A stretch of 64,000 nucleotides of DNA from a virus (IMGVR_UViG_3300031740_000001), one strand, 5' to 3'. Counted from the first letter of the stretch, positions 15,187 through 52,950 are shown. Made by a program: numbers and translations. Notes: generated from the letters alone by a model not told the origin.

Positions 15187-15749
15187 TCCCAGTGCCTTCC
15201 CGTGCTCGGGTGAAAGATGCTGTGCTCATCACGAATGACCTGGATCAGGCCAGCCATGTGGCTGACCCAATACTCAGGCAGAGGGAAGTAGCTTGATAAG
15301 ACACCCTCCTTGGTGCGGCTGGTCTGCTGAGCGCGCATACGCCGCTCACGCGTGATGACTACTGCTGAGGCCGTGGAGCGCTGGCGACCGTACCAGGCTG
15401 AGGCTGTGTGGTGCTTGCCCTTGTAACCGAAGAACCGGTTCCGGAAGCGGGTGATGAGCTTCGGGTTCGGGATCTCGCTGAAGAGCCACGCCGTGGCCTC
15501 CCTGACGGTCGCTACGGCCTTGGCAATGCTTACCTTGACTCGGCTTAGGGTACGGCGGAAAAGTCCGCGAGAACGGCGTACAGCGGGCTTAACAGGTGTC
15601 TTGGGCCATGCCTTGACGATGGCGTACTCACCAGTCGCGTCCTGCTTCTTGGCAAGCATCGTGACGAGCAGCTCCATCCCGCCCGTCTCATCCGGCAGAA
15701 GCGCGTGGCGCTGGATGACTTCGGTGTCGTCGATTTCCATGATGGTCAT
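15177..15749 (-). CDS. hypothetical protein
   Basis: 190-aa ORF with good GC3 codon usage, tightly coupled to its neighbours. Confidence 0.5.
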   Translation of the reverse strand: MTIMEIDDTEVIQRHALLPDETGGMELLVTMLAKKQDATGEYAIVKAWPKTPVKPAVRRSRGLFRRTLSRVKVSIAKAVATVREATAWLFSEIPNPKLITRFRNRFFGYKGKHHTASAWYGRQRSTASAVVITRERRMRAQQTSRTKEGVLSSYFPLPEYWVSHMAGLIQVIRDEHSIFHPSTGRHWECS

Positions 15750-16552: not shown

Positions 16553-16965
16553 GTTCTTTCTCCTTTTGGTTCTTGGGTTGTTCCTTATTTGATAATCAGG
16601 AGGTTAGCATATTCTGGCACGCCTGCAAGTCAGCCACAACCACAGCAGGTGCATATTGCCATTACCAGGGCAAACACGGCGTACAAGAAACGATCAAGGT
16701 TGCCTTGCTGTCCTCTTCTCATTCCTTCTCCTTCCGGAATTGATGTTGGGCCGCAGGGTAAATCCGGAAACCCCTGCGGCCCGCACCAGCCTGTACGTCG
16801 GCTGTCCACCGTCCAGATCTTTCTGTCCTAGGAAACAGGGCAACTGGAGTCCCAGTCAGAATCCCATCTGACCAGCGGGGATGTTACTTTTGTTTTAACC
16901 ATCTCCCCCTGTTGAGAGTTTGATGGGCTGGAAGTCGTCATCGCACATCCAATATTTCGACCTCG

Positions 16966-17051
16966 GGCGAACGGGAGGACTCGAACCTCCAACCAACGGT
17001 GACTTCTCGCGCGATCCCTCACCGCTGCTCTGCCAATTGAGCTACCTTCAC
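16966..17051 (-). ncRNA. tRNA-like element (Leu-type acceptor and D-arm, canonical T-arm, aberrant 16-nt anticodon-region loop); possible pseudo-tRNA
   Basis: The minus-strand RNA has a 6/7-bp acceptor, then a D-arm GCTC-AATTGGCA-GAGC. A CGGTGA/TCACCG stem encloses 16 nt. The T-arm is GGAGG-TTCGAGT-CCTCC. No 7-nt anticodon loop can be formed. Confidence 0.35.
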
Positions 17052-17225
17052 CATTGAGTGAGTTTCTGTGTTTAGCGTCGTAAAACCCAGCTCCGGAAAA
17101 TCCGACGTTGCCCACCTGTTAAGGCGTCGTAACCCCGGTGGCCCGAGTTACGCCGTGCGACGCTCTGCCAAGCTGAGCTACAGGATAGTACCGGACTAGC
17201 TCTCATTCGAGCGTGGCGGGTATTT

Positions 17226-17253
17226 TATCCAGCCTGGATTTGAACCAGGGACC
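17226..17253 (-). ncRNA. orphan tRNA 3'-half-like module (T-arm CCTGG-TTCAAAT-CCAGG plus a 7-nt acceptor-like tail)
   Basis: It has a perfect canonical T-loop. No matching 5' acceptor lies within 100 nt. Confidence 0.3.
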
Positions 17254-17262
17254 TTCGCAACG

Positions 17263-17338
17263 TGGGAAGGACAGGATTCGAACCTGCATTACGCCATGCT
17301 TTTGCCCGGAGCTGTTGCCTGATCAGCTACTTCTTCCC
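17263..17338 (-). ncRNA. tRNA-like element (6/7-bp acceptor and canonical T-arm GCAGG-TTCGAAT-CCTGT; no anticodon stem-loop)
   Basis: The body is of tRNA length (76 nt). Only a GCTG-loop-CAGC hairpin is formed in place of the D and anticodon arms. Confidence 0.3.
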
Positions 17339-29673: not shown

Positions 29674-29886
29674 ATGCATTTGAACATGAGTACCCTGATT
29701 GCCTGGCTTTGTGAGACCTACGATGCGAAGAATATCGTAGGTGGGCGGATCGGCGCGAAGGAGTGGCGTAACGCAGCCTTCGACACGCTGGTGCAGGCCG
29801 CAATGCAGAGCGAGGGATGCACCAAGGAATACGCCGAAACGTGGCTGGCCGAAGAGGTCACGGAGTACTACGCAAGCAAGGGTTAG
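29674..29886 (+). CDS. hypothetical protein (70 aa)
   Basis: GAGGAGAAGGAAATG leader. Confidence 0.5.
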   Translation: MHLNMSTLIAWLCETYDAKNIVGGRIGAKEWRNAAFDTLVQAAMQSEGCTKEYAETWLAEEVTEYYASKG

Positions 29887-29920
29887 CTCGGGTGCAACAC
29901 GATAACGAGGATTTGACAGA

Positions 29921-29975
29921 ATCTCCGTTATCGTGTTAGACTTTAGCTACAAGCAACGAGGACAAGGAGAAGGAA
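29921..29975 (+). promoter_or_regulatory. conserved promoter/leader cassette, copy 3 (with -35 TTGACA at 29913-29918)
   Basis: TTGACA-18-TAGACT, inside CCGTTATCGTGTTAGACTTTAGCTACAAGCAACGAGGACAAGGAGAAGGAA-ATG. A 12-bp inverted repeat, AACACGATAACG...CGTTATCGTGTT, flanks the -35 element. Confidence 0.55.
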
Positions 29976-30125
29976 ATGGAACTGAGCATCAAGGACCTGT
30001 GGAAGATCAAGGAAGCGTTGGGAGTCTTGGATTCTGAATACACGGACGAAGCGGCAGTTGAGCTGATGGGCCGCGTGACCGAAGCGATTACCCGGCGCGT
30101 CGAGGAAGCACGGAACATGTTCTGA
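29976..30125 (+). CDS. small protein (49 aa)
   Basis: Not in the ORF track. Translation: MELSIKDLWKIKEALGVLDSEYTDEAAVELMGRVTEAITRRVEEARNMF. It lies right after cassette copy 3. Confidence 0.5.
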   Translation: MELSIKDLWKIKEALGVLDSEYTDEAAVELMGRVTEAITRRVEEARNMF

Positions 30126-30140
30126 ACGGCTCCCCTAGAT

Positions 30141-30158
30141 GTCCCCCGAAAGGGGGAC
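30141..30158 (+). terminator. GAAA-tetraloop hairpin (GTCCCCC-GAAA-GGGGGAC), followed by GAAGAGGTTCAG
   Basis: Same architecture as the hairpin at 29618. Confidence 0.4.
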
Positions 30159-30184
30159 AAACTGGGAAGAGGTTCAGCACGAAC

Positions 30185-30270
30185 GAACTTCGATTAGGGT
30201 TTCCGCCGAATCAGGATAGGGCTAATCGCCGAAACACGAATAGGGAATCCCGCCGAAACTAGGGAGGCCA
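30185..30270. repeat. three tandem ~23-bp iteron-like repeats (tAGGGnnTCCGCCGAAnC)
   Basis: The copies are ATTAGGGTTTCCGCCGAATC, AGGATAGGGCTAATCGCCGAAAC and ACGAATAGGGAATCCCGCCGAAAC, followed by TAGGGAGGCC. They sit inside a 300-bp non-coding gap. Confidence 0.5.
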
Positions 30271-30345
30271 GCGCGCGGCGAGTATTGCGCGACCGAGAGT
30301 GCCACTGGGGAAAAAGGCAGCGTGTGCAGGGCGTGAATCCTGTGG

Positions 30346-30397
30346 GGAGTGGAGCTGAGTAACGGCAGCCTGTCAGGTTCGAGTCCTGGCCACTCAC
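30346..30397 (+). ncRNA. tRNA-like minihelix (acceptor stem, a short hairpin, canonical T-arm TCAGG-TTCGAGT-CCTGG), no anticodon arm
   Basis: GGAGTGG-AG-GCTG AGTAACGG CAGC-CTG-TCAGGTTCGAGTCCTGG-CCACTCA. The acceptor has 6/7 bp. It is 52 nt long and lies in a non-coding region, 35 nt upstream of gene 30431. Confidence 0.35.
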
Positions 30398-30430
30398 GTA
30401 AGATAAAGACAACGAGGAAGGAAGACGGAA

Positions 30431-30844
30431 ATGGGTTATTCCAGCTCAGTGACAGGCGAGATCTATGTCAGCCCTGTTCCAGCGCCGAATCTGCTCGACC
30501 TGGTGGCGCTGCGGAAAGACCGCAACGTTAGCCGAGCGCTGGAGTGTCTGAAGGTTGAGTTCGAGTTCGATACCACGACGGAGATCGAGACGGACGGAAC
30601 TGAGGTGACACGACGCAAGGTGACTGCCGCAAAGCTGATGACTCGCTGTGAGGGCGTGGAGCATTCTCACTATTACCTGCAAGAAGGTCTGCAAGCACTG
30701 GTAAACAGCCTTGGCAAGAACCGGAAGTACAGCGGCTGGTTCGACTTCCGAGGCGAGGCTGGAGATCTTATGCGATACGCCATCGTCGATGGTGTCGCGC
30801 GCGAGTTCGAGCCGACGATCACGTGGCCAGCGGAGGTGAACTGA
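30431..30844 (+). CDS. hypothetical protein
   Basis: 137-aa ORF with a GAGGAAGGAAGACGGAAATG leader. Confidence 0.55.
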   Translation: MGYSSSVTGEIYVSPVPAPNLLDLVALRKDRNVSRALECLKVEFEFDTTTEIETDGTEVTRRKVTAAKLMTRCEGVEHSHYYLQEGLQALVNSLGKNRKYSGWFDFRGEAGDLMRYAIVDGVAREFEPTITWPAEVN

Positions 30845-30846
30845 CA

Positions 30847-30951
30847 TGCACCTTCCAGGCTGGTTCACCTCGTACATCCTAGGATGGGTGTGCGGCTGGA
30901 TAGCCGCGTCGGTGTTCGTGCTCTATCTGGCGCGAAAGCGTAAGCGCTGAA
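30847..30951 (+). CDS. membrane peptide (34 aa)
   Basis: MHLPGWFTSYILGWVCGWIAASVFVLYLARKRKR. Confidence 0.4.
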
Positions 30952-30964
30952 CAGTTCCCTTGAG

Positions 30965-30984
30965 CCACCTGCGAAAGCAGGTGG
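30965..30984 (+). terminator. GAAA-tetraloop hairpin (CCACCTGC-GAAA-GCAGGTGG), followed by GGAAAAGGTTCAG
   Basis: Third member of the hairpin + GGTTCAG family. It is followed by the promoter TTGACT-16-TGtTATGAT (31009-31036). Confidence 0.4.
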
Positions 30985-31065
30985 TGATAGGAAAAGGTTC
31001 AGATCAATTTGACTGAATCGAAATCTCTGTTATGATGGAGATACGGAAATGACAAGGGAGGGAAA

Positions 31066-31446
31066 GTGGCAACAGGAACTAAATCAAGTGCAGGCAGCAA
31101 ACTTGCTGGTTTCGTCGCGCTAATCGTGCTTCTCGGGTTCGGATACGGACTGGTCAAGCGCATTCCGAGCGATGAGCGATCGGGAGCGTTGTTTTCGGTT
31201 GTTTTCGAATCGAAAACGCGTGTTATTGCAGTGAATATCGTCATTCTTGTGGATGGCGTTCTTGTTCACTCGGCTAAGCCCAGAAAGTCTCCGTGGGAGC
31301 AACTCGTATTGCTCAATAGGGGGCAGACGGCAGTGCTCACCGCAGAGCAAAAGATACCAGCTAGGCTGTCTTGTGCCGTCAACGGTGAGGTTCAGGAGAT
31401 TCGGGAGTTTCCGGGGATCGTGACCTGTGCGTATAGGCGGGCGTGA
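31066..31446 (+). CDS. hypothetical membrane-associated protein
   Basis: GTG start after a GGGAGGGAAA Shine-Dalgarno. Hydrophobic N-terminus: AGFVALIVLLGFGYGLV. Confidence 0.45.
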   Translation: MATGTKSSAGSKLAGFVALIVLLGFGYGLVKRIPSDERSGALFSVVFESKTRVIAVNIVILVDGVLVHSAKPRKSPWEQLVLLNRGQTAVLTAEQKIPARLSCAVNGEVQEIREFPGIVTCAYRRA

Positions 31447-31543
31447 TCTGCTGAACAGAACCCTTGCGCCATCGCGCTAAGCTCGGTGGCGTCTAGGAAG
31501 CGGTTCAGCCGAATCGTGAAATGAAGACAACGAAAGGGAAGAA

Positions 31544-33566: not shown

Positions 33567-33639
33567 GCGGGCGTAGCTCAGCTGGCAGAGCTTCCGACTT
33601 TTACTCGGAATGTCGCAGGTTCGATCCCTGCCGCCCGTA
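33567..33639 (+). tRNA. tRNA-Lys (anticodon UUU)
   Basis: GCGGGCG-TA-GCTC-AGCTGGCA-GAGC-T-TCCGA-CTTTTAC-TCGGA-ATGTC-GCAGG-TTCGATC-CCTGC-CGCCCGT-A. It is 73 nt with no encoded CCA. Confidence 0.8.
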
Positions 33640-33675
33640 CGTAAGGACATCATCGAAACAGAAAAGGAGAGCACC

Positions 33676-45186: not shown

Positions 45187-46992
45187 ATGCGCACTGCCCG
45201 AACGCTGCGTCCGTGGAGTCTGGAAGCTTTGATTCAGCGGGAGAAGACCTTTGACGGTCTGATCGAAAAAGCCGTCAAGATGACGTTGCGTCCGCTGGCG
45301 ATGAACGTTGACGGGCTGCTGACTGCTGCTGTGGAAGCGGAGATGAGCCTGTCCTCTTCGCTAGCCGCAACGATGATTGGCCCTACGGTCAGCATGGATA
45401 GCGCTGGTGCATTGTCTGTGACCTGGGATCGATTCGTCGATGGTGAACTGCTGCCATTTCTCGCGGATACGTTTATGCATGGTGTGGTACAGGCTCATGT
45501 GGGTCTTCCAGCTGACACACCGATTGTCGCTGACTTCATTGCCCAGGATTACCTACTGACTGCGGCTAATAACCTGAAGAACATTGGTGATCTCGTCTGG
45601 ATGGCGATTCAGGCCGAACTTCAGGAAGGCGTCAATGCCGGAGAGGACATGCGGCAGCTCGCTGGAAGGGTCCGTGCGGCCTCTCAGGTGACCGCTGGGC
45701 GTGCAATGACGATTGCCCGTACCGAAGTGCACCGTGCGGCAGAAGCGGGCTCTCTGACGCAAATGAGGCTGTCCGGCTTTACCAACTTCGAATGCCAGAA
45801 GCGCTGGCTTGCGACCGAAGACGAGCGCACCAGACTTTGGCACATCCAGGCTGATGGCCAGACGGTGGGCCTGAACGAGGTCTTCGACGTAGGCGGGGAA
45901 GGGTTGCAGTTTCCTGGCGATCCGCACGGACGTGCGGATAACGTCATCAACTGCCGATGCACTATGGAGTATCTTTTCCCGGATGATGACGAGGACGACG
46001 CTCTGACCAGCTCTGGAGCGCCTAGCCAGATTACCTATGCGTTTTGGACCGAAGAGGACGAGCAGGCGCACCCGCGCGATCGTGCGGGTCGCTTCCGGCG
46101 CAAGGACGAGCACGTTGGCAAGGTGCTCAAGGACATCGAAGAGAAGGTGTCTGTTGCGTCCGAGCCTGAGATTTCGCTTCGGGACATCTTGCCGCTGGTC
46201 AACAAGGACACGATCAAACCCCCAAAGATTCCCGATGACATTGTCGATCAGCTGCATAGTGTATTCACCGGTACTTTTGGTGGATTTCGGGCAGAGGTGT
46301 CGAACGTCGAATGGGGCAAGGGCAATCATCGGATGATGGTGTCTGGCAACATTCTCAATGCTAAGGGCCAATCAGTCGGTAGTTTCGAGCGAGTTTTTAA
46401 GATCAACTATCAAGGTGTTTTCATGGTTGATCACACTGGTTTGTACATGGATCGAGACGTACAGGGCCAGGGGTTTGCTAAGGCGTTCAACAAGAATGCT
46501 TTCAAGAACTACAAGAAGATGGGCATCGAACGGGTACAGCTGCAGGCTGACATCGACGTAGGCGGCTACGCGTGGGCTCGCGAAGGGTATGACTGGGCAC
46601 CCGACGATGCTCCATCGCTTGCAGAAACTCTTTCTAGAATTGATGATGCCCGCGCGCCACAAATGACGGAACCTCCGCCAAGGACCCAAAAACAAATTGA
46701 TGATGTTTACTTCCCGATGTCACATCATCTTTATCGGATACCGGAAGAGCGTCGAGAAGAACAGGCCGCACTAGTTCGTAAGCTCTGGCTTGATGTTGGT
46801 GGCACAGTCGACATGGATACACCAGACGACGAAGTTCCTGACATCGTGGAAATGTGGCCGACCCCGTATGAGCTGAGTCAGCTCGGCCGCTGGGAAGGCG
46901 CTGGCAAAGATGACTGGTGGATCGGCAAGGCCATCATGATGGGCTCGAACTGGATCGGGGTGAGGTATCTTGACGATCTCGTTGACGCGTAG
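45187..46992 (+). CDS. MuF-like (SPP1 gp7 family) minor capsid protein with a ~340-aa C-terminal extension of unknown function
   Basis: Phage_Mu_F signatures are present: ...AMTIARTEVHRAAEAG... and the hallmark VINCRCTMEY (N-C-R-C). They end near residue 260. About 340 residues follow. Confidence 0.6.
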   Translation: MRTARTLRPWSLEALIQREKTFDGLIEKAVKMTLRPLAMNVDGLLTAAVEAEMSLSSSLAATMIGPTVSMDSAGALSVTWDRFVDGELLPFLADTFMHGVVQAHVGLPADTPIVADFIAQDYLLTAANNLKNIGDLVWMAIQAELQEGVNAGEDMRQLAGRVRAASQVTAGRAMTIARTEVHRAAEAGSLTQMRLSGFTNFECQKRWLATEDERTRLWHIQADGQTVGLNEVFDVGGEGLQFPGDPHGRADNVINCRCTMEYLFPDDDEDDALTSSGAPSQITYAFWTEEDEQAHPRDRAGRFRRKDEHVGKVLKDIEEKVSVASEPEISLRDILPLVNKDTIKPPKIPDDIVDQLHSVFTGTFGGFRAEVSNVEWGKGNHRMMVSGNILNAKGQSVGSFERVFKINYQGVFMVDHTGLYMDRDVQGQGFAKAFNKNAFKNYKKMGIERVQLQADIDVGGYAWAREGYDWAPDDAPSLAETLSRIDDARAPQMTEPPPRTQKQIDDVYFPMSHHLYRIPEERREEQAALVRKLWLDVGGTVDMDTPDDEVPDIVEMWPTPYELSQLGRWEGAGKDDWWIGKAIMMGSNWIGVRYLDDLVDA

Positions 46993-49900
46993 GCAGCGTT
47001 TGGCGGCTGTCGCCAAGGCTCACGACGCATGGGTTGAGCAGAATTTGTCTGCTGTAGCAGGTGAATTCGATCCTGCCGCGCACCCGAAGGACGGTTCGGA
47101 CTACAACCAGCACAATTTGGACGTTGACGCGACGGGTGGGATGGAAGACGAACTTGCGCAGCTGCTGGCGGGCGTATTTGACGACCCACTGACTGCCGCT
47201 GGGGATCCCGATTGGGATCCGTCCGAGCATCCGCGCGGCCCAGACGGCAAGTTCATTGAGAGCGTCGGCGCTGCTGACGCGGCAATAAAAGAGCTGGAGC
47301 AAGCTCAAGCAGTTGCTTCGCTGGCCAAGAGTGTTGCTTATCTTAAGGGTGAAAACTACAAGGCTCTTGAAATCCAAGCAGACTTGTTGAACATCCAGAA
47401 GGATATTGATACTTACGAGAAGGGGAAAAAGGCCCTCCTCAAAAAGGGGAAGACTGGCCCTAGCCCAGCTGGGGCTACTACCAAGGTCACGCCGAAAAAC
47501 CTTCAGGTGGGTCAGTACGTCAATAGTCAGAGCAGAGATTATCTCAAGGAGTCGCCCAAACAGATCAAATCGATTAGCAAAAAGGGCGATCATCACTATC
47601 TTCTTGATTTTGAAGATGGCTCCAACCTTTATGTGACGAATAACGAAAAGGTTGTTCTGCACTCGCAGCCTGCTGCGAAGGAACCTCTTACAGCGGTTAA
47701 AGCAGACGATCCGGATGTCAAAAATAAGGTCCTTATCGGTCTCCCAGATGGCCGTGGCGCGTATGTCGAGCGCGATGATCCTGCTGCGCCGAAGGTGCGC
47801 GACATCGAGACGGACGAAATTCTTTTCACCGGAAAGAATGACGCTGATCTTTATCAGCAAATGGCAGATCACTTTGGTGTTGAGCTGAAGTATACCGAAG
47901 ATCTCACCAGTAAGATGAAGATCTTTACGCCCAAGAAAAAGGGTGCAGCTAAGCCGATTACCGCTTGGACCAAGACGATCTTCAGTGGAAAATACGGAGA
48001 TGGTGAGGTAGTTGCTGTCAAGGATGATGGCAGCGCGCGGCTGACCTGGGACGAAGGCAGCAAAAAATTCCAGTGGGAAAAGAAGACTCCTGGCGGCTGG
48101 AAGCTCGCCGGGCTGCTCACCAAAAAGGACGCTTACGCGAAGTTCAAAGACGAGAAGACCAGCTGGCAGTATCCTGTGCCTGGCGCGGCAGTCACGGAGG
48201 ATGCACCACCTTCACCTTTGGAAAACTTGCAGTCGCATAGCCTTATCGATAGTGCAATAGCTAAAGGAGATTTCTCCCAGCTTAAGCAGATAGGTGGAAA
48301 CGCTGGCACGACACCAGGCGGCTTCTTTGAGGCACCAGACGGCTCACGCTGGTACGTGAAAGGACAGAAGACACAAGAACATGCTAATAATGAGGCTCTC
48401 GCTTCAGCTCTATACCGCGCAGCTGGCATCGATGTACCCGAAGTAATTCGGGGTAGTGGTACGCCAGGACTTCCAGGCACGGCGCATACGGCTACACGAA
48501 TAGTCGAAGGTGCGAATCAAAATCTGCCAGAAGCATTAAATGATCAAGATTATGTCGATAAGATACGAGAAGGATTCGCTCTTGATGCATGGCTTGCCAA
48601 CTGGGATGTCGTTGGTGAAGGCGATGAAAATCCTTGGGGCAATATTATTGAAGGATCAGACGGAAAGCCGCATCGAATTGATGTTGGCGGAGCATTACTT
48701 TTCCGTGGGCTAGGAACGTATAAAGGCTCAGCTTTCGGTAAAGAAGTTACTGAATTCGAGCGTATGCGTGATACCAGCAAGCCTTCACGCCATGTCAAAA
48801 TTTTCTCGGGCATGAGTCAAGAGCAGATTGACGCATCTGTTGCACGAGTTAAAGCGATTTCTCCTGATCAAATCCGGGAGCTTACATCAAAATATGGTAT
48901 GGATCCGGAACTCGCAGATCTTCTTATTGATCGTCGCGAAAACCTTATTATGAAGGTACCTGCTCCTGATCCCGTCAAAATTCCTGCGCCTACACCAGTT
49001 ATTTCTCCTACCTCTAGCGCAAAGAAGACTGTCTGGACCAAGGGTAAGTTCAACACGACACTTGCGTACAAGAGCAATTACCAACATCGTGAAATTGTTG
49101 GTATGACGGAATCTGCTGGAGAGACGAAACTTATCCTGTGGGAAAGCGGAAAGTTTCGTTCATACCGCCATGTCTTCGGCAGCGGATGGCAGTACGAAGG
49201 CACTTGGACGAGCAAGAAAGCTGCTCTTGAGGCGCTTAAAGATGCGCCACTTTATCGGCCCCCAGCGGGCACGATGGCGGACACGAACAAGGACTTCATT
49301 CATGCGGATCTCTTGAATCATGGCGGTCCGACCATTACGGCGACGGATAGCACTGATCTTTTTCAAGAGCTATACGACGCTGTTCCGCCCATAAGCACTG
49401 AAACTACCATAGTAGACGGTATCGGCATTATTAAGTCACTTGATGGTGACAAGGCAATTGCCTACAACAACGGCGGCGACAACCTAGGTGGCATTCACCA
49501 GAACTCAAAGGGTGAGTGGGTTGTTACCCCAAAGAATTACCTACATCCGTTTATGTCAACTAGCAAAACTTACGCATCGAAAGAAGCAGCGCTCAAGGCA
49601 CTTGTACAGGCAGATAACGCCTACATGGGCTCTATCGGAGCGCGTTCTGACGTTCCTGCCGCGCCTGCCGCGCCTGACATTGAAGAAATCCCGCTGACCA
49701 AGAAAATGCCGAAACTGACTGCTGCTCAAATCGAGAAGCAGAACGGCGCTATTCCGAAGAGCCTAAAACAGGCCCAGCGGACGGATTTCTTGAAAAACTT
49801 CAAGGAAAACAGTTCGGTCGGCTTTGTGCACTCTGGTGAAGACGATGCGCAAAAGGTCTTCACAGCAGTGGTGTACGCGGTAAAGAAGCACAACGCTACC

Positions 49901-50704
49901 GAGTCGCCAAAGCTGAACTACCTACAGGGCCTTAATCTTCTGGACAGCGTCTATGGGACAGGGCAAAAAGCTAGGGTCGTCAGCTGGCTTCAAACGAGTG
50001 AAGGTAAAGCACTCGCGCCTGTGCTCACTAGTGGGCTTGACAGCGGGCATGGGTTGGTCATTCCTGCCGACGCACACGTTGGTGTGCCTTCTCCATACTC
50101 CATCGGCAAGCCTAAAAAGGTAGCTCAAAATGCTTTCCAGAAAATGTCACTTGCAGACATGCTGGAAATGCACGAGAAGATGTACGCGAAAAAGCCCATG
50201 ACCTCCGGCCAACGGTCAAGAATTAGCCAGTACAAGGACGGTTCGAACGAATTTAACCAACCACTTCGCGGACACGCGTACTCACCTCTGGATGAGTACA
50301 GTCTTCCTAAAATTCAAGAGCTTCAGGAAGCTATGCGACCCGTGACACGTTCATTCGTCGTATTTCGGGGAACGGATGGTTTAGGTTCTGCCATTAATAA
50401 AGATACGATCAAAACTTTGGATGATTTGAAAAAATTCGAAGGATCAGTAATTGGTGATCCTGCGTTTCTTTCAACATCATTCGATCCAAATTCAGCCTTT
50501 ACAGGCAAAAAGTTCAAGTTGTTCATTAGTATTCCAGAGGGAACACCAGGAACTTTTGCATATGCAGCTGACAGCAGTTTCCACAACGAGAAAGAGTTCA
50601 CGTTAGCGGCTGGACTGCATTACCGCATCGATCGAGTAGAAGAAACACCTTATTCTGGGTTCAATGTCTACATGACAGTAGTACCGGAGGTGAAGAAGAA
50701 ATGA
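46970..50704 (+). CDS. 1244-aa virion-module protein with a C-terminal ADP-ribosyltransferase toxin-like domain (R / S-T-S / E-x-E)
   Basis: The last ~200 aa carry VVFRGTD (catalytic Arg), AFLSTSFD (STS motif) and FHNEKEFTLAAG (ExE in the ARTT loop), with spacing typical of C3/iota/Alt-type ARTs. A central domain has a kinase-like DAWLANWDVVG...IDVGGAL segment. The start overlaps the MuF gene by 23 nt. Confidence 0.6.
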   Translation: MTISLTRRQRLAAVAKAHDAWVEQNLSAVAGEFDPAAHPKDGSDYNQHNLDVDATGGMEDELAQLLAGVFDDPLTAAGDPDWDPSEHPRGPDGKFIESVGAADAAIKELEQAQAVASLAKSVAYLKGENYKALEIQADLLNIQKDIDTYEKGKKALLKKGKTGPSPAGATTKVTPKNLQVGQYVNSQSRDYLKESPKQIKSISKKGDHHYLLDFEDGSNLYVTNNEKVVLHSQPAAKEPLTAVKADDPDVKNKVLIGLPDGRGAYVERDDPAAPKVRDIETDEILFTGKNDADLYQQMADHFGVELKYTEDLTSKMKIFTPKKKGAAKPITAWTKTIFSGKYGDGEVVAVKDDGSARLTWDEGSKKFQWEKKTPGGWKLAGLLTKKDAYAKFKDEKTSWQYPVPGAAVTEDAPPSPLENLQSHSLIDSAIAKGDFSQLKQIGGNAGTTPGGFFEAPDGSRWYVKGQKTQEHANNEALASALYRAAGIDVPEVIRGSGTPGLPGTAHTATRIVEGANQNLPEALNDQDYVDKIREGFALDAWLANWDVVGEGDENPWGNIIEGSDGKPHRIDVGGALLFRGLGTYKGSAFGKEVTEFERMRDTSKPSRHVKIFSGMSQEQIDASVARVKAISPDQIRELTSKYGMDPELADLLIDRRENLIMKVPAPDPVKIPAPTPVISPTSSAKKTVWTKGKFNTTLAYKSNYQHREIVGMTESAGETKLILWESGKFRSYRHVFGSGWQYEGTWTSKKAALEALKDAPLYRPPAGTMADTNKDFIHADLLNHGGPTITATDSTDLFQELYDAVPPISTETTIVDGIGIIKSLDGDKAIAYNNGGDNLGGIHQNSKGEWVVTPKNYLHPFMSTSKTYASKEAALKALVQADNAYMGSIGARSDVPAAPAAPDIEEIPLTKKMPKLTAAQIEKQNGAIPKSLKQAQRTDFLKNFKENSSVGFVHSGEDDAQKVFTAVVYAVKKHNATESPKLNYLQGLNLLDSVYGTGQKARVVSWLQTSEGKALAPVLTSGLDSGHGLVIPADAHVGVPSPYSIGKPKKVAQNAFQKMSLADMLEMHEKMYAKKPMTSGQRSRISQYKDGSNEFNQPLRGHAYSPLDEYSLPKIQELQEAMRPVTRSFVVFRGTDGLGSAINKDTIKTLDDLKKFEGSVIGDPAFLSTSFDPNSAFTGKKFKLFISIPEGTPGTFAYAADSSFHNEKEFTLAAGLHYRIDRVEETPYSGFNVYMTVVPEVKKK

Positions 50705-52950
50705 GTGGATTCAGTAGTGATCCTAGCTTCTACGTCGTCTCCGGCCATGGCGCTGACCAGGGGTTTACCGAAGATGAAGCGTACGCGCTGCTCGCTGGTC
50801 TTGATGACACCAGCTCCACAGCCGTCATGCCGATGGTTGCTGCCGTGGATTCGGACGGGGAAGAGCACACGGGTGCGATGGTCGCGCTGGTGCCTACGGA
50901 TGCGGATATCGAGCGGCTGCTAGTCGAGGATGGGGAACCAGCTGATCAATTGCACCTCACGCTTATGTTTCTCGGTGAAGCGGCGGACATTTCCGAGAAC
51001 AGCCGTGCACAGATCATCGCTGCTGTGGAGCGTTATGCCGATGCTCAGCTGAGCGCGAATGGCTTCAGCGTCAACGTTTTCAACCCGATGGCGAGCAACT
51101 CGTGCATCGTGATGGGCGTTGGCAACGACGACGGAAGCCTGCAAGAGCTGCAGATGAACGTCGCGTCATCGCTGCGCGGGCTCGCTGGTCTGATGATCCC
51201 AGACCAGCACACTCCTTGGGTTCCGCATGTCACGTTGGCGTACACGGATGAGTTTGGCAAGGTAGAAGAGCTGGGTACGCGTACTGGACCCATCACTTTC
51301 GACAAGATTCGCGTTGCCTTCGGCGGCGAAGTACACGACATCCCGCTAGGAGGGACGATGACGGCATCTATTGAGGAGTTCGCAGAACGCGACGTTAACG
51401 CCCCCGGCGGAGGGCATGATCTACGTAATTACTGGACTAAAGGCGAGGGCGCAGCCAAGATCGGATGGGGTACGGACGGATCTTTCGCGCGCTGCGTGGC
51501 GCAGCTCGGGAAACACGTTCGTGACCCGCAAGGCCTGTGCGCGGAATATCATCATGCTGCGACAGGCGAATGGCCTGCGGAAAAAGGCGTGAAGAGCGGC
51601 GGCACCATGACGGAGTTCACGACTGAGGGTGTCATCCTCACAGCAGCTCAAGCAGCGAAGCAGGCGGAAGATGAGCCGTGGGAGGGTGTGCTCACCGTCG
51701 AGGGCGAAGAGTCCGGAGACGGGCGTCTCTTCGGCCATGGCTCCTTGGACTGGGCCGAACTGCCAATGCCCCTTATGTACCAGCCTGCGAGTGTGGGCGG
51801 CCATGACGCAAGCGTTCTCGCGGGTGCGATAACTTTTGCCGCGCGCAAGGGCAGCCAGATCTTTGGCCGTGGTCACGTCTTCGGCAACATGCTGGACAGC
51901 GAGCACGGTGACGGAATTCGCAACATGATGTCAACAGGCGGCGTTTCCGTTGATGTGGACAAGGTCAAGGATGTGGACGTGGAGATGGTCTTCGCCGATG
52001 GTGAAGCTGGGCTCATGTCCAAGCCTGAACTGACCGTGTTCCACCGTGGCCGGATCCGTGGCGCGACGCTGGTTGCCTTCCCGGCATTCGTGGAAGCCAA
52101 ACTTGCCTTCACCAATGAGGCGATGCTGACTGCTGCAGCTGGCGAAAGTTGTGACTGTTCAATGGGCGGGGATTCGTACGTTCTGAACGCCGCTAGCCAC
52201 ACGATCACCATTCCGGATGTTCCCCCGGCGGAGTGGTTTCAAGAGCCGACCGACGTGCAGGCAAAGGGCGCGCTGACCATCACGGACGAAGGCCGCGTGT
52301 TCGGCTGGCTGGCACCAGCGGGCGTCACCCATCGTTCGGTCCGTAAGACCGTACCTATGGGCGCGAACGTGGATTACAGCCGCTTCATGAAGAGCGAAAC
52401 CATTGTCGCTGGCGGTGGGCGCGTGGTGTCTGGAGTCATCACGGGCAATTGCGGTCACGCGGACACGGAGAACTACGGCACGCTAGCGAATCGGAAAAAG
52501 CATTATGATGATTCGTGTTCGGTCTTCGCGAATATTGCAGTTGGCCAGCGCCCTGGAAAAGGCGTCTGGGTCGCTGGTGCGCTCCGCCATGGCGTCACAG
52601 CAGAGCAGGTTGCGACGGCAATGGGATGCACGCTCTCAGGTGACTGGCAGCCACACCCGGACCGTCCTGGGGTGCAGGAGTTCATCGCGGCGTTGCTTGT
52701 ACCTGTGCCGGGATTTGCCATGGCTCGTACGCAGGCCTCGGTAACTACAGCATCGGCATCTGTCCTTTATCAAGATGGAGTTCTGACCGCTGCGGCGATT
52801 CCGGTCCAGTTCGGAGAGGCAATTCCGCGTAGCGAAATCGAAATTGCACAAGACATCATCACGGAGTACAAGGATCTGCTGCTGGCAAGCCTTGACCTCG
52901 ATCCTCAGAGCCGCAAAGATGCGGTTATGGCAGAACTAGAAATGGAGTAG
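50701..52950 (+). CDS. fusion protein: N-terminal 2H phosphoesterase (LigT/2',5'-RNA-ligase-like) domain plus a putative prohead protease/scaffold-like C-terminal region
   Basis: Two H-x-T-x motifs are present, LHLTLMFLGE and VPHVTLAYTD, about 100 aa apart as in LigT/CPDase. The downstream region has HD...VSVD segments that weakly resemble the S78 prohead protease. It lies between the ART gene and the major capsid gene with an ATGA overlap. Confidence 0.5.
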   Translation: MSGFSSDPSFYVVSGHGADQGFTEDEAYALLAGLDDTSSTAVMPMVAAVDSDGEEHTGAMVALVPTDADIERLLVEDGEPADQLHLTLMFLGEAADISENSRAQIIAAVERYADAQLSANGFSVNVFNPMASNSCIVMGVGNDDGSLQELQMNVASSLRGLAGLMIPDQHTPWVPHVTLAYTDEFGKVEELGTRTGPITFDKIRVAFGGEVHDIPLGGTMTASIEEFAERDVNAPGGGHDLRNYWTKGEGAAKIGWGTDGSFARCVAQLGKHVRDPQGLCAEYHHAATGEWPAEKGVKSGGTMTEFTTEGVILTAAQAAKQAEDEPWEGVLTVEGEESGDGRLFGHGSLDWAELPMPLMYQPASVGGHDASVLAGAITFAARKGSQIFGRGHVFGNMLDSEHGDGIRNMMSTGGVSVDVDKVKDVDVEMVFADGEAGLMSKPELTVFHRGRIRGATLVAFPAFVEAKLAFTNEAMLTAAAGESCDCSMGGDSYVLNAASHTITIPDVPPAEWFQEPTDVQAKGALTITDEGRVFGWLAPAGVTHRSVRKTVPMGANVDYSRFMKSETIVAGGGRVVSGVITGNCGHADTENYGTLANRKKHYDDSCSVFANIAVGQRPGKGVWVAGALRHGVTAEQVATAMGCTLSGDWQPHPDRPGVQEFIAALLVPVPGFAMARTQASVTTASASVLYQDGVLTAAAIPVQFGEAIPRSEIEIAQDIITEYKDLLLASLDLDPQSRKDAVMAELEME

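What the first reader, a model, noticed from the sequence alone, without database searches (positions are those of the whole stretch)
30141..30430. Non-coding gap with three tandem 23-bp iterons and a tRNA-like minihelix on the + strand
There are 290 bp without an ORF. They contain the GAAA hairpin and three tandem tAGGGnnTCCGCCGAAnC repeats (30185-30270). They also contain a 52-nt element (30346-30397) with a 6-bp acceptor-like stem, one internal hairpin and a canonical T-arm (TCAGG-TTCGAGT-CCTGG). It is a tRNA-like structure lacking D and anticodon arms, on the same strand as transcription. It echoes the minus-strand tRNA-like modules at 17-18 kb.
Basis: seen in the sequence. Interest (0 to 1): 0.6.

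Follow-up and report, generated by a model that had tools for sequence, protein, structure and literature searches.

The report
Conserved phage RNA with tRNA-like end
The 305-base gap holds a strongly conserved, folded RNA element that matches no catalogued RNA family: the "iterons" look like RNA hairpins rather than DNA binding sites, and the element ends in a variable tRNA-shaped module whose job is still unknown.

Summary
The interpretation needs revising. The gap (30126-30430) is conserved in 8 other uncultured actinophage-like contigs (group A). An ~85-nt core also occurs in a second, unrelated phage group (group B).

The non-coding core is 78-98% identical between group-A contigs. The gene next to it is only 59-66% identical. 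No open reading frame with a start codon is conserved.

Several helices keep pairing through changes: H1, repeat 2, Pc, Hx, the acceptor-like stem and the T-stem. Every non-Watson-Crick pair is G-U on the + strand. So this is a + strand structured RNA.

The three "iterons" behave as hairpins with CCGAA-containing loops. Repeat 2's stem covaries, and the copy number falls to 2 or 1 in relatives. That argues against DNA iterons.

The tRNA-like minihelix is real: its closing stem and T-stem covary. Its interior is swapped between relatives, and one lineage has lost the T-loop. ARAGORN, Rfam, INPHARED, PLSDB, IMG/VR and GTDB give no match.

Best reading: a new phage RNA family, co-transcribed with its neighbours, whose tRNA-like 3' module probably recruits tRNA-processing enzymes. 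Function is inferred, not shown.

The parts
30119..30180 (+). H0: a long imperfect stem-loop after the stop codon. Outer stem CTGAAC 30122-27 / GTTCAG 30172-77. Apical hairpin GTCCCCC-GAAA-GGGGGAC 30141-58. No U-tract follows. It is one copy of a repeated intergenic module.
   Evidence: The apical stem covaries in relatives (GCCTCCCC/GGGGAGGC, GGCTCC.C/G.GGAGCC). The same module occurs at 30947-31002 and ~31452-31508 in the window, and in L002 and L010.
30169..30191 (+). H1: a 7-bp helix, GAGGTTC 30169-75 / GAACTTC 30185-91. Its 5' strand overlaps the 3' arm of H0, so the two pairings exclude each other.
   Evidence: All 9 sequences are 100% paired. Pair 3 is G-U, A-U or G-C. Pairs 1 and 6 switch between Watson-Crick and G-U.
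30195..30216 (+). Repeat 1 (R1): TAGGG, then a candidate hairpin TCC 30202-04 / GGA 30214-16 with loop GCCGAATCA. Invariant in group A.
   Evidence: With no variation, the pairing can be neither supported nor refuted. RNAalifold offers an alternative 8-bp long-range helix, GGGTTTCC / GGGAATCC, between R1 and R3.
30217..30241 (+). Repeat 2 (R2): TAGGG, then hairpin ATCG 30225-28 / CGA(A)T 30237-41 with loop CCGAAACA.
   Evidence: The stem covaries in four forms around the conserved loop C(C/T)GAAA. The formal count finds 3 of 4 pairs with changes on both sides. The window-type copy needs one bulged A.
30241..30265 (+). Repeat 3 (R3): TAGGG, then a candidate hairpin TCCC 30248-51 / GGGA 30262-65 with loop GCCGAAACTA. 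The fourth TAGGG (30260-64) supplies its 3' strand. R3 is the start of the core shared with group B.
   Evidence: Only loop positions vary.
30266..30324 (+). Invariant core. Pc is CGCGC 30272-76 / GCGCG 30287-91 with loop GGCGAGTANN. Next comes ACCGAGAG. Pd is TGCC 30300-03 / GGCA 30316-19 with a 12-nt purine-rich loop.
   Evidence: Nearly identical in all 12 sequences of both groups. Pc pair 2 follows the path G-C, then G-U (L002, L048), then A-U (L051).
30325..30344 (+). Hx: a hairpin, TGCAGG / CCTGTG, with conserved loop G(C/G)GTGAAT. A 3-bp pseudoknot with upstream CGT 30321-23 is possible.
   Evidence: The stem covaries: TGCAGG/CCTGTG, TGTAGG/CCTGTG, GCCCGG/CCGGGC, GCCTGG/CCAGGC. Group B has GCCCGG/CCGGGC with a different loop. 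The pseudoknot is tentative and read by eye from the sequences.
30345..30397 (+). The tRNA-like 3' module. Closing acceptor-like stem 30347-52 / 30390-95, plus G30345-C30397. D-arm-like hairpin 30354-69. T-arm 30373-89 with loop TTCGAGT. There is no anticodon arm.
   Evidence: The closing stem and T-stem covary across relatives. The interior is replaced in relatives by a different hairpin, a 12-nt linker, a 4-arm cloverleaf or a 5-way junction. ARAGORN and the Rfam tRNA model do not call it.
30398..30433 (+). A short spacer (conserved CGTAAGATA), the ribosome-binding site GAGGAAGGAAG, and the ATG of the DUF6205 gene. No terminator separates the module from the gene.

Best explanation
The gap encodes a structured RNA made from the + strand. 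It is co-transcribed with the small early genes on either side.

From 5' to 3' it contains:
- a stem-loop that is a repeated intergenic module (H0);
- a short helix (H1);
- three small hairpins with CCGAA-containing loops (the 'iterons');
- an ~85-nt almost invariant core with two hairpins (Pc, Pd);
- a further hairpin (Hx);
- a tRNA-shaped module: an acceptor-like stem stacked on a T-arm, with no anticodon arm.

Shown here: conservation well above the neighbouring gene, base-pair covariation, the strand, the absence of coding, and the absence from known RNA families.

Inferred:
(i) The tRNA-like module is recognised by host tRNA-processing enzymes (RNase P at 30346/30347, a 3' endonuclease after 30396-97, possibly the CCA-adding enzyme). 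Cleavage would release a ~180-220-nt RNA carrying the core, and would give the downstream mRNA a new 5' end about 35 nt before its start codon.
(ii) The invariant core and the repeated CCGAA loops are the working part. They bind a conserved protein or RNA partner sequence-specifically.

The partner and the biological role are unknown.
For: Conservation. Homologous gaps were found in L002 and L003 (via the SPFH neighbour). L010 came from a DNA pattern. L046, L048, L049, L051 and L052 came from a DUF6205 profile. The core is 78-98% identical in nucleotides, against 59-66% for the adjacent gene (43-54% in amino acids).

A second phage group (L011, L015, L019) shares only the ~85-nt core plus Hx and a terminal tRNA-like module. 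It sits in a ~450-nt non-coding stretch behind a TATACT -10 box.

Structure. On 9 sequences and 33 pairs, 95.6% of cells pair, against 26-47% when partners are slid. The covariation score is 0.162 against 0.03-0.06. No shuffle of 500 reaches it.

The manual table shows compensatory changes in R2, Hx, the acceptor stem and the T-stem. Pc shows the path G-C to G-U to A-U. Every non-Watson-Crick pair is G-U on the + strand and none is A-C.

H1 covaries and overlaps H0, so transcription must enter through H0.

Coding. No conserved ORF with a start codon exists, and repeat 2 carries 1-nt indels.

Precedent. The tRNA-like domain of Mycobacterium smegmatis YrlA is cut by RNase P and receives CCA in vivo (PMC4201824).
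Against: - There are no expression or processing data.
- The minihelix folds no better than shuffled sequence (z = +0.5), and the minimum-energy fold of the whole gap is different.
- One lineage (L010, L049) has lost the T-loop signature (AGCGAGC in place of TTCGAGT), which weakens strict tRNA mimicry.
- The window-type acceptor has only 6 contiguous pairs.
- The core's own pairings are almost invariant, so its fold is largely untested.
- Only about 5 independent lineages exist, so the covariation statistics are modest.
- No promoter or terminator defines an independent RNA gene in group A.
- The element always abuts a ribosome-binding site, which fits a cis-acting leader equally well.
Confidence: 0.6

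Rival explanations
1. A cis-acting 5' leader. The folded RNA controls translation or stability of the gene immediately downstream, like a protein-binding or ligand-binding leader. The tRNA-like module would be part of the expression platform next to the ribosome-binding site.
For: In every copy the element ends 30-50 nt before a start codon with no terminator between them. In 8 of 9 group-A copies the gene is DUF6205. An invariant core flanked by covarying stems resembles an aptamer.
Against: The downstream gene is not constant. L002 has an unrelated 104-aa gene and no DUF6205 homologue among the two candidate genes compared. Group B has a DUF2637 gene. No alternative pairing that would hide the ribosome-binding site is evident in group A. 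Stems inside the core do not vary as riboswitch stems usually do.
Confidence: 0.25
2. A DNA-level element. The 22-24-bp repeats would be iterons or operators bound by a phage protein, for example an origin recognised by the PrimPol/D5 helicase-primase. The hairpins would be incidental.
For: There are three to four direct repeats with about two-turn spacing. Repeats 1 and 3 are invariant in sequence. The phage encodes a PrimPol-D5 protein 8 kb upstream. GAATC also occurs next to the -35 boxes of nearby promoters.
Against: Repeat 2 changes by compensatory substitutions in its flanks while its loop is kept. The repeat number drops to 2 in L051 and to 1 in group B. Conservation is highest outside the repeats. 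Wobble pairs are all G-T on one strand. There is no A+T-rich unwinding region (G+C 0.51-0.66). There is no local change in GC skew.
Confidence: 0.07
3. A decaying tRNA gene (pseudogene), or an attP core copied from a host tRNA, lying beside an unrelated conserved regulatory region.
For: The T-arm is canonical (GGTTCGAGTCC). The phage carries tRNA genes and other tRNA-like pieces. The interior of the module differs between close relatives.
Against: The closing stem and T-stem are kept by compensatory changes in all lineages, and a terminal module is also present in group B. Drift would not do that. The module carries its own 5' acceptor strand, which an attP core would not need. No integrase was found among 50 window ORFs scanned against Pfam. 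The 24-mer GTCAGGTTCGAGTCCTGGCCACTC is absent from IMG/VR.
Confidence: 0.05

Closest known systems
Bacterial and phage Y RNA-like RNAs (YrlA, Rfam RF02553)
   Same: A non-coding RNA that couples a conserved protein-binding part to a tRNA-shaped domain (T-arm, D-arm, acceptor-like stem) with no decoding anticodon. It is found in Actinobacteria and their phages. The M. smegmatis YrlA domain is cut by RNase P and receives CCA (PMC4201824).
   Different: There is no YrlA match at this locus even at E <= 10. The module order is the normal tRNA order, not the permuted order of YrlA. No Ro60/TROVE gene was found among the ORFs scanned. The core sequence is unrelated. The separate 17.1-17.3 kb region of the same window does give a weak YrlA hit (32 bits).
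tmRNA tRNA-like domain
   Same: An acceptor stem plus T-arm without an anticodon arm, attached to a larger structured RNA. Some actinophages encode tmRNA.
   Different: ARAGORN finds no tmRNA, standard or permuted. The two acceptor strands are about 40 nt apart, not at the two ends of the RNA. There is no G3-U70 pair and no conserved tag reading frame.
MALAT1-mascRNA and tRNA punctuation of polycistronic transcripts
   Same: A tRNA-like structure at the 3' boundary of a longer RNA serves as an RNase P / RNase Z cleavage signal. Cleavage sets the 3' end of the upstream RNA and releases a small tRNA-like RNA.
   Different: These are eukaryotic or organellar systems. Here the cleavage is only inferred. 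This is a resemblance of mechanism, not of descent.
Iteron-type replication origins (phage lambda ori, plasmids P1, F, R6K, RK2)
   Same: Three to four direct repeats of about 19-23 bp spaced about two helical turns apart in a non-coding region.
   Different: The copy number is not conserved. One repeat evolves by compensatory stem changes. There is no A+T-rich region and no adjacent initiator gene. Conservation peaks outside the repeats.
Type III toxin-antitoxin antitoxin RNAs (ToxI-like repeat arrays)
   Same: Tandem direct repeats transcribed upstream of a protein gene.
   Different: Here the units are short (22-24 nt) and divergent from one another. The downstream genes are not conserved and match no PADLOC model.

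Membership tests
tRNA (Rfam RF00005 / ARAGORN) | A four-arm cloverleaf with a 7-nt anticodon loop, detected by tRNA models | tested here: not met
   ARAGORN calls only the Pro, Met and Lys tRNAs elsewhere in the window. Rfam at gathering threshold reports nothing here. In E-value mode only tRNA-Sec appears, at 16-19 bits and E 0.5-3.4. The anticodon arm is absent. In L003 and L046 it is replaced by an 8-bp stem with a GGCA tetraloop.
tRNA (Rfam RF00005 / ARAGORN) | A T-arm (5-bp stem, loop TTCRANY) stacked on an acceptor stem | tested here: met
   The window has TCAGG-TTCGAGT-CCTGG next to CCACTC. The stems covary in relatives. The T-loop motif is kept in all copies except L010 and L049.
tmRNA | Detected by ARAGORN, with a tag reading frame and a G3-U70 acceptor pair | tested here: not met
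   (no tmRNA). (no conserved frame). Read directly from the sequence, pair 3 of the acceptor is G-C or A-U.
YrlA / Y RNA-like (RF02553) | A match to the covariance model at its gathering score | tested here: not met
   No YrlA hit in 29850-30650 at E <= 10, nor in relatives.
YrlA / Y RNA-like (RF02553) | Encoded next to a Ro60 (TROVE) gene | tested here: inconclusive
   No TROVE domain was found in the 50 window ORFs scanned against Pfam. Not every ORF was scanned, and the contig extends beyond the window.
Iteron replication origin | Several direct repeats in helical phase | tested here: met
   Copies start at 30195, 30217 and 30241, plus a partial copy at 30260. Spacing is 22, 24 and 19.
Iteron replication origin | The repeat array is kept in relatives, with an adjacent A+T-rich unwinding region | tested here: not met
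   Repeat 2 is rebuilt in L051 and absent in L011, and repeat 1 is absent in group B. G+C is 0.51-0.66 throughout.
Iteron replication origin | An initiator protein binds the repeats | not testable with these tools
   This needs a gel-shift or footprinting experiment.
Intrinsic terminator | A G+C-rich hairpin followed by a U-tract | tested here: not met
   The hairpin at 30141-58 is followed by AAACTGGG. The terminator scan does not list it.
Type III antitoxin repeat array | Near-identical tandem repeats upstream of a ToxN-like endoribonuclease | tested here: not met
   The repeats are only 75-85% alike. The downstream proteins have no PADLOC hit.
attP core derived from a host tRNA | Identity to the 3' end of a host tRNA gene, with an integrase nearby | tested here: inconclusive
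   No integrase was found among the scanned ORFs. The minihelix itself was therefore not searched against bacterial genomes.

The most novel reading that the evidence does not exclude
This may be a new class of phage RNA in which an almost invariant ~85-nt core is fused to a fast-evolving, interchangeable tRNA-shaped module. The module would act as a tRNA decoy or adaptor. It could deliver the core to, or titrate, host enzymes that recognise the tRNA elbow and acceptor (RNase P, the CCA-adding enzyme, tRNA-targeting defence nucleases). The swapping of modules between close relatives would then reflect an arms race or host switching.
Probability: 0.15. Interest if true: 0.8.

Novelty: new variant of a known kind. 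Interest (0 to 1): 0.6.

Why it matters
Phage non-coding RNAs are poorly catalogued, especially in uncultured actinophages. This element is under much stronger constraint than the protein genes around it. It is shared by two otherwise unrelated phage groups. It combines an invariant core with a modular tRNA mimic.

If the tRNA-like end is processed by RNase P, this would be a bacterial-virus counterpart of the MALAT1/mascRNA mechanism for making RNA ends. It would also be a second, independent example, after Y RNAs, of tRNA mimicry in actinobacterial systems.

It is also a caution for annotation: short direct repeats in a phage gap can be RNA hairpins rather than iterons.

Tried and rejected
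- DNA and protein searches of INPHARED phages with the region and with the DUF6205 gene found nothing. PLSDB plasmids gave nothing. The group-B RNA gave nothing against phages.
- Five IMG/VR scans (two proteins, three DNA patterns besides the minihelix 24-mer) found nothing.
- A scan of GTDB genomes with a core 19-mer returned 23 hits. None matched the element profile, so there is no evidence for a host-derived or prophage copy.
- Rfam was searched at permissive thresholds on the window region and on the four loci L010, L011, L015 and L019 whole, on the group-B RNA stretch of L011, and on L051, L052, L047 and L010. Only chance-level hits appeared.
- The tRNA-Sec alignment pairs the core's GAGAGTGCC with the 3' acceptor strand. 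I rejected it because the 3' strand changes in relatives together with the local 5' strand, not with the invariant core.
- The small-protein hypothesis was rejected. A 30-codon stop-to-stop frame recurs only because the DNA is conserved. It has no start codon, and substitutions are not preferentially synonymous.
- The tmRNA, type III antitoxin and attP readings were considered and set aside (see the membership table).
- MAFFT mis-registers repeat 2 and Hx, so their helices were also checked by hand.
- A resemblance of the core (GAGUA...ACCGAGAGUG) to the sarcin-ricin loop was recalled from memory only. It was not testable here and carries no weight.

Full report
1. THE OBSERVATION

The window is a phage-like contig of about 56% G+C. 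It encodes a PrimPol-D5 protein, a family A DNA polymerase, an SNF2 helicase and a Mu-F-like protein.

The finding lies in a long block of small + strand genes. The gap runs from 30126 to 30430. It lies between a 49-aa ORF and a 137-aa DUF6205 gene.

- The hairpin GTCCCCC-GAAA-GGGGGAC is at 30141-58 and is unique in the window.
- Three TAGGG...CGCCGAAWC units start at 30195, 30217 and 30241, with a fourth TAGGG at 30260.
- A tRNA-shaped element spans 30345-30397. It has a 6-bp closing stem, a GCTG/CAGC hairpin with loop AGTAACGG, and a canonical T-arm TCAGG-TTCGAGT-CCTGG.

Taken alone these are weak. The minihelix folds as drawn but no better than shuffles (z = +0.5). The whole gap has z = -0.3 and a different minimum-energy fold. 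ARAGORN and Rfam report nothing here.

2. RELATIVES

There are no relatives among cultured phages, plasmids or IMG/VR.

Relatives came from neighbouring proteins.
- The SPFH protein 1.1 kb downstream has 68-72% identical homologues on Logan contigs L002 and L003. Both carry a homologous gap.
- A 20-mer from the gap found L010 in JGI metagenomes. It also found three contigs of a different phage type: L011, L015 and L019.
- A DUF6205 profile then gave L046, L047, L048, L049, L051 and L052.

The total is 9 distinct group-A copies and 3 group-B copies.

L011 is also a phage. It has a tape-measure protein, and a DUF2637 gene lies downstream of the element.

Group B shares only repeat 3, the core, Hx and a terminal tRNA-like module. 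These sit inside a ~450-nt non-coding stretch behind a TATACT box. Group B also has a second tRNA-like module upstream.

3. CONSTRAINT

From H1 to Hx the group-A copies are 78-98% identical in nucleotides. The adjacent DUF6205 genes are 59-66% identical in nucleotides and 43-54% in amino acids. The upstream coding sequence is barely alignable.

No reading frame has a conserved start. Repeat 2 carries 1-nt indels.

4. RNA, NOT DNA

I defined seven helices upstream of the tRNA-like module. On the 9-sequence alignment, 95.6% of 294 cells pair. When partners are slid by 1-3 columns, 26-47% pair. The covariation score is 0.162 against 0.03-0.06. None of 500 column shuffles reaches the observed pairing or score.

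MAFFT mis-registers repeat 2 and Hx in some rows, so I also tabulated the helices by hand.
- H1 (GAGGTTC/GAACTTC): pair 3 is G-U, A-U or G-C.
- R2: four stem versions (ATCG/CGAT with a bulge, ACCC/GGGT, TACC/GGTA, ATCC/GGAT) around a conserved C(C/T)GAAA loop.
- Pc (CGCGC/GCGCG): follows the path G-C, G-U, A-U.
- Hx: TGCAGG/CCTGTG, GCCCGG/CCGGGC, GCCTGG/CCAGGC.
- Acceptor-like stem: GAGTGG/CCACTC, GAGTAG/CTACTC or CTACTT, GGAGTG/CACTCC, GCAGCG/CGCTGC, and (L051, read) TGGAGCG/CGCTCCA.
- T-stem: TCAGG/CCTGG, GGGAG/CTCC, CCGGG/CCCGG, GGCGG/CCGCC.

Every non-Watson-Crick pair is G-T on the + strand, and none is A-C. The only non-standard cell is a terminal G-G.

This pattern is what an RNA read from the + strand produces. 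It is not expected for protein-binding sites in double-stranded DNA.

H1 covaries and shares GTTC with the 3' arm of H0. The transcript must therefore already include H0. So the element is co-transcribed from the promoter at 29913-42, and H0 has no U-tract.

5. THE 'ITERONS'

Repeats 1 and 3 are invariant. Their small hairpins (TCC/GGA, TCCC/GGGA) cannot be tested, and neither can the alternative 8-bp helix between them.

Repeat 2 is clearly a hairpin. In L051 it is replaced by a longer structure without the CCGAAAC loop. In L011 repeats 1 and 2 are absent. L015 and L019 have an unrelated hairpin in that place.

There is no A+T-rich segment. I therefore rate the iteron/origin reading at about 0.07.

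6. THE tRNA-LIKE MODULE

The closing stem and the 3'-most hairpin are always present and covary. The interior is exchanged.
- The window and L052 have a D-arm-like hairpin.
- L002 and L048 have CCTC-GAAGG-GAGG.
- L010 and L049 have a 12-nt single strand, and a loop AGCGAGC instead of TTCGAGT.
- L003 and L046 are full cloverleaves, with an 8-bp GGCA-tetraloop arm where the anticodon arm would be.
- L051 is a five-way junction.

None is called a tRNA. The variants are combined mosaically with the repeat-2 variants.

The module is thus a maintained but plastic tRNA mimic. It is not a decoding tRNA and not simple debris.

By analogy with M. smegmatis YrlA, which is cut by RNase P and receives CCA (PMC4201824), I infer that it is a handle for tRNA-processing enzymes. 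This step is inference.

7. WHAT IT IS NOT

It belongs to no Rfam 15 family. It is not tmRNA (ARAGORN). I found no evidence that it is host-derived: the core 19-mer has only chance matches in 185,579 species genomes.

No integrase, reverse transcriptase or Ro60 was seen among 50 window ORFs scanned against Pfam. The neighbouring proteins match no defence models.

The RNA-based prophage origins of cluster A mycobacteriophages (PMC7157519) are a conceivable analogue. They lie next to parABS, which is absent here.

8. VERDICT

The iteron reading is probably wrong.

The best-supported description is a previously uncatalogued, strongly constrained structured RNA. It occurs in two groups of uncultured, probably actinobacterial phages. 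The host assignment rests on SsgA, DUF6205 and DUF2637 domains and on a Pseudonocardia-labelled homologue.

The RNA has an invariant core and a modular tRNA-like 3' end. Its function is unknown.

My probabilities are:
- about 0.85 that it is a functional + strand RNA structure;
- about 0.45 that the 3' module is processed by tRNA enzymes;
- about 0.4 that the core acts in trans, against about 0.3 that it acts as a cis leader.

Noticed in passing
window 16965-17336 (- strand): A cluster of tRNA-like pieces. There is a YrlA (Y RNA-like) hit at 17135-17274 (32 bits, E 6e-5, below the gathering score of 69). There is a sub-threshold tRNA at 17265-17336 (21.6 bits). There is an odd 87-nt tRNA-Pro(AGG) with a 20-nt insertion in the anticodon loop. 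No Ro60 gene was found among the scanned ORFs. A profile search shows no homology to the 30.2-kb element.
   Followed up: partly
window 30119-30180, 30947-31036, 31446-31510; L002 7185-7275 and 8146-8202; L010 296-395: A repeated intergenic module: a stop codon inside CTGAAC, a G+C-rich hairpin, then (A/G)GAAGAGGTTCAG. It is usually followed by a promoter of the form TTGAC(A/T)-GAATC...TAnnAT. It may be a terminator or RNase III-type processing site shared by the small early genes.
   Followed up: partly
window 29896-29942: The promoter-like site TTGACA-18-TAGACT (29913-42) lies between the arms of a perfect 12-bp inverted repeat, AACACGATAACG / CGTTATCGTGTT. This looks like an operator. Similar ATCGTG-containing promoters occur in L002 and L010.
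   Followed up: no
window 33567-33640; L002 11536-11608; L003 5448-5520; L007 3399-3472: A tRNA-Lys(UUU) gene is conserved downstream of the SPFH gene in all relatives for which that region is available.
   Followed up: no
window 46970-52950: A 1244-aa protein has a C-terminal ADP-ribosyltransferase domain. A 749-aa protein has a 2H / 2'-5' RNA ligase-like domain. Both lie just after the Mu-F-like gene and may be injected or virion-associated enzymes.
   Followed up: no
window 15621-15639 (- strand): An Rfam gathering-threshold hit to the HIV-1 major splice donor (32.4 bits for a 19-nt model). This is certainly spurious.
   Followed up: no
L011 1750-1795 and 1946-2170: The group-B RNA is preceded by a direct repeat GACCTGCGGAAACGTA (two copies) and a TATACT box. 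It has a second tRNA-like module (1946-2028). It also has a candidate H-type pseudoknot, GGCGG-GG-CCCGG-A-CCGCC-GAUACAA-CCGGG. Group A may have a 3-bp counterpart: CGU, CGC or CCC pairing with the first three loop bases of Hx.
   Followed up: partly
L003 9745-9984: A gene with an Acb2/Tad1-hairpin domain (anti-CBASS / anti-Thoeris sponge family) sits in the same early-gene block of a relative. This suggests the block carries counter-defence genes.
   Followed up: no
L001 (Logan SRR8558721 contig, 1369 bp): An independent assembly of the same phage is identical across the gap. It breaks exactly in the GAAA loop of the 30141-58 hairpin, probably an assembly artefact of the palindrome.
   Followed up: yes
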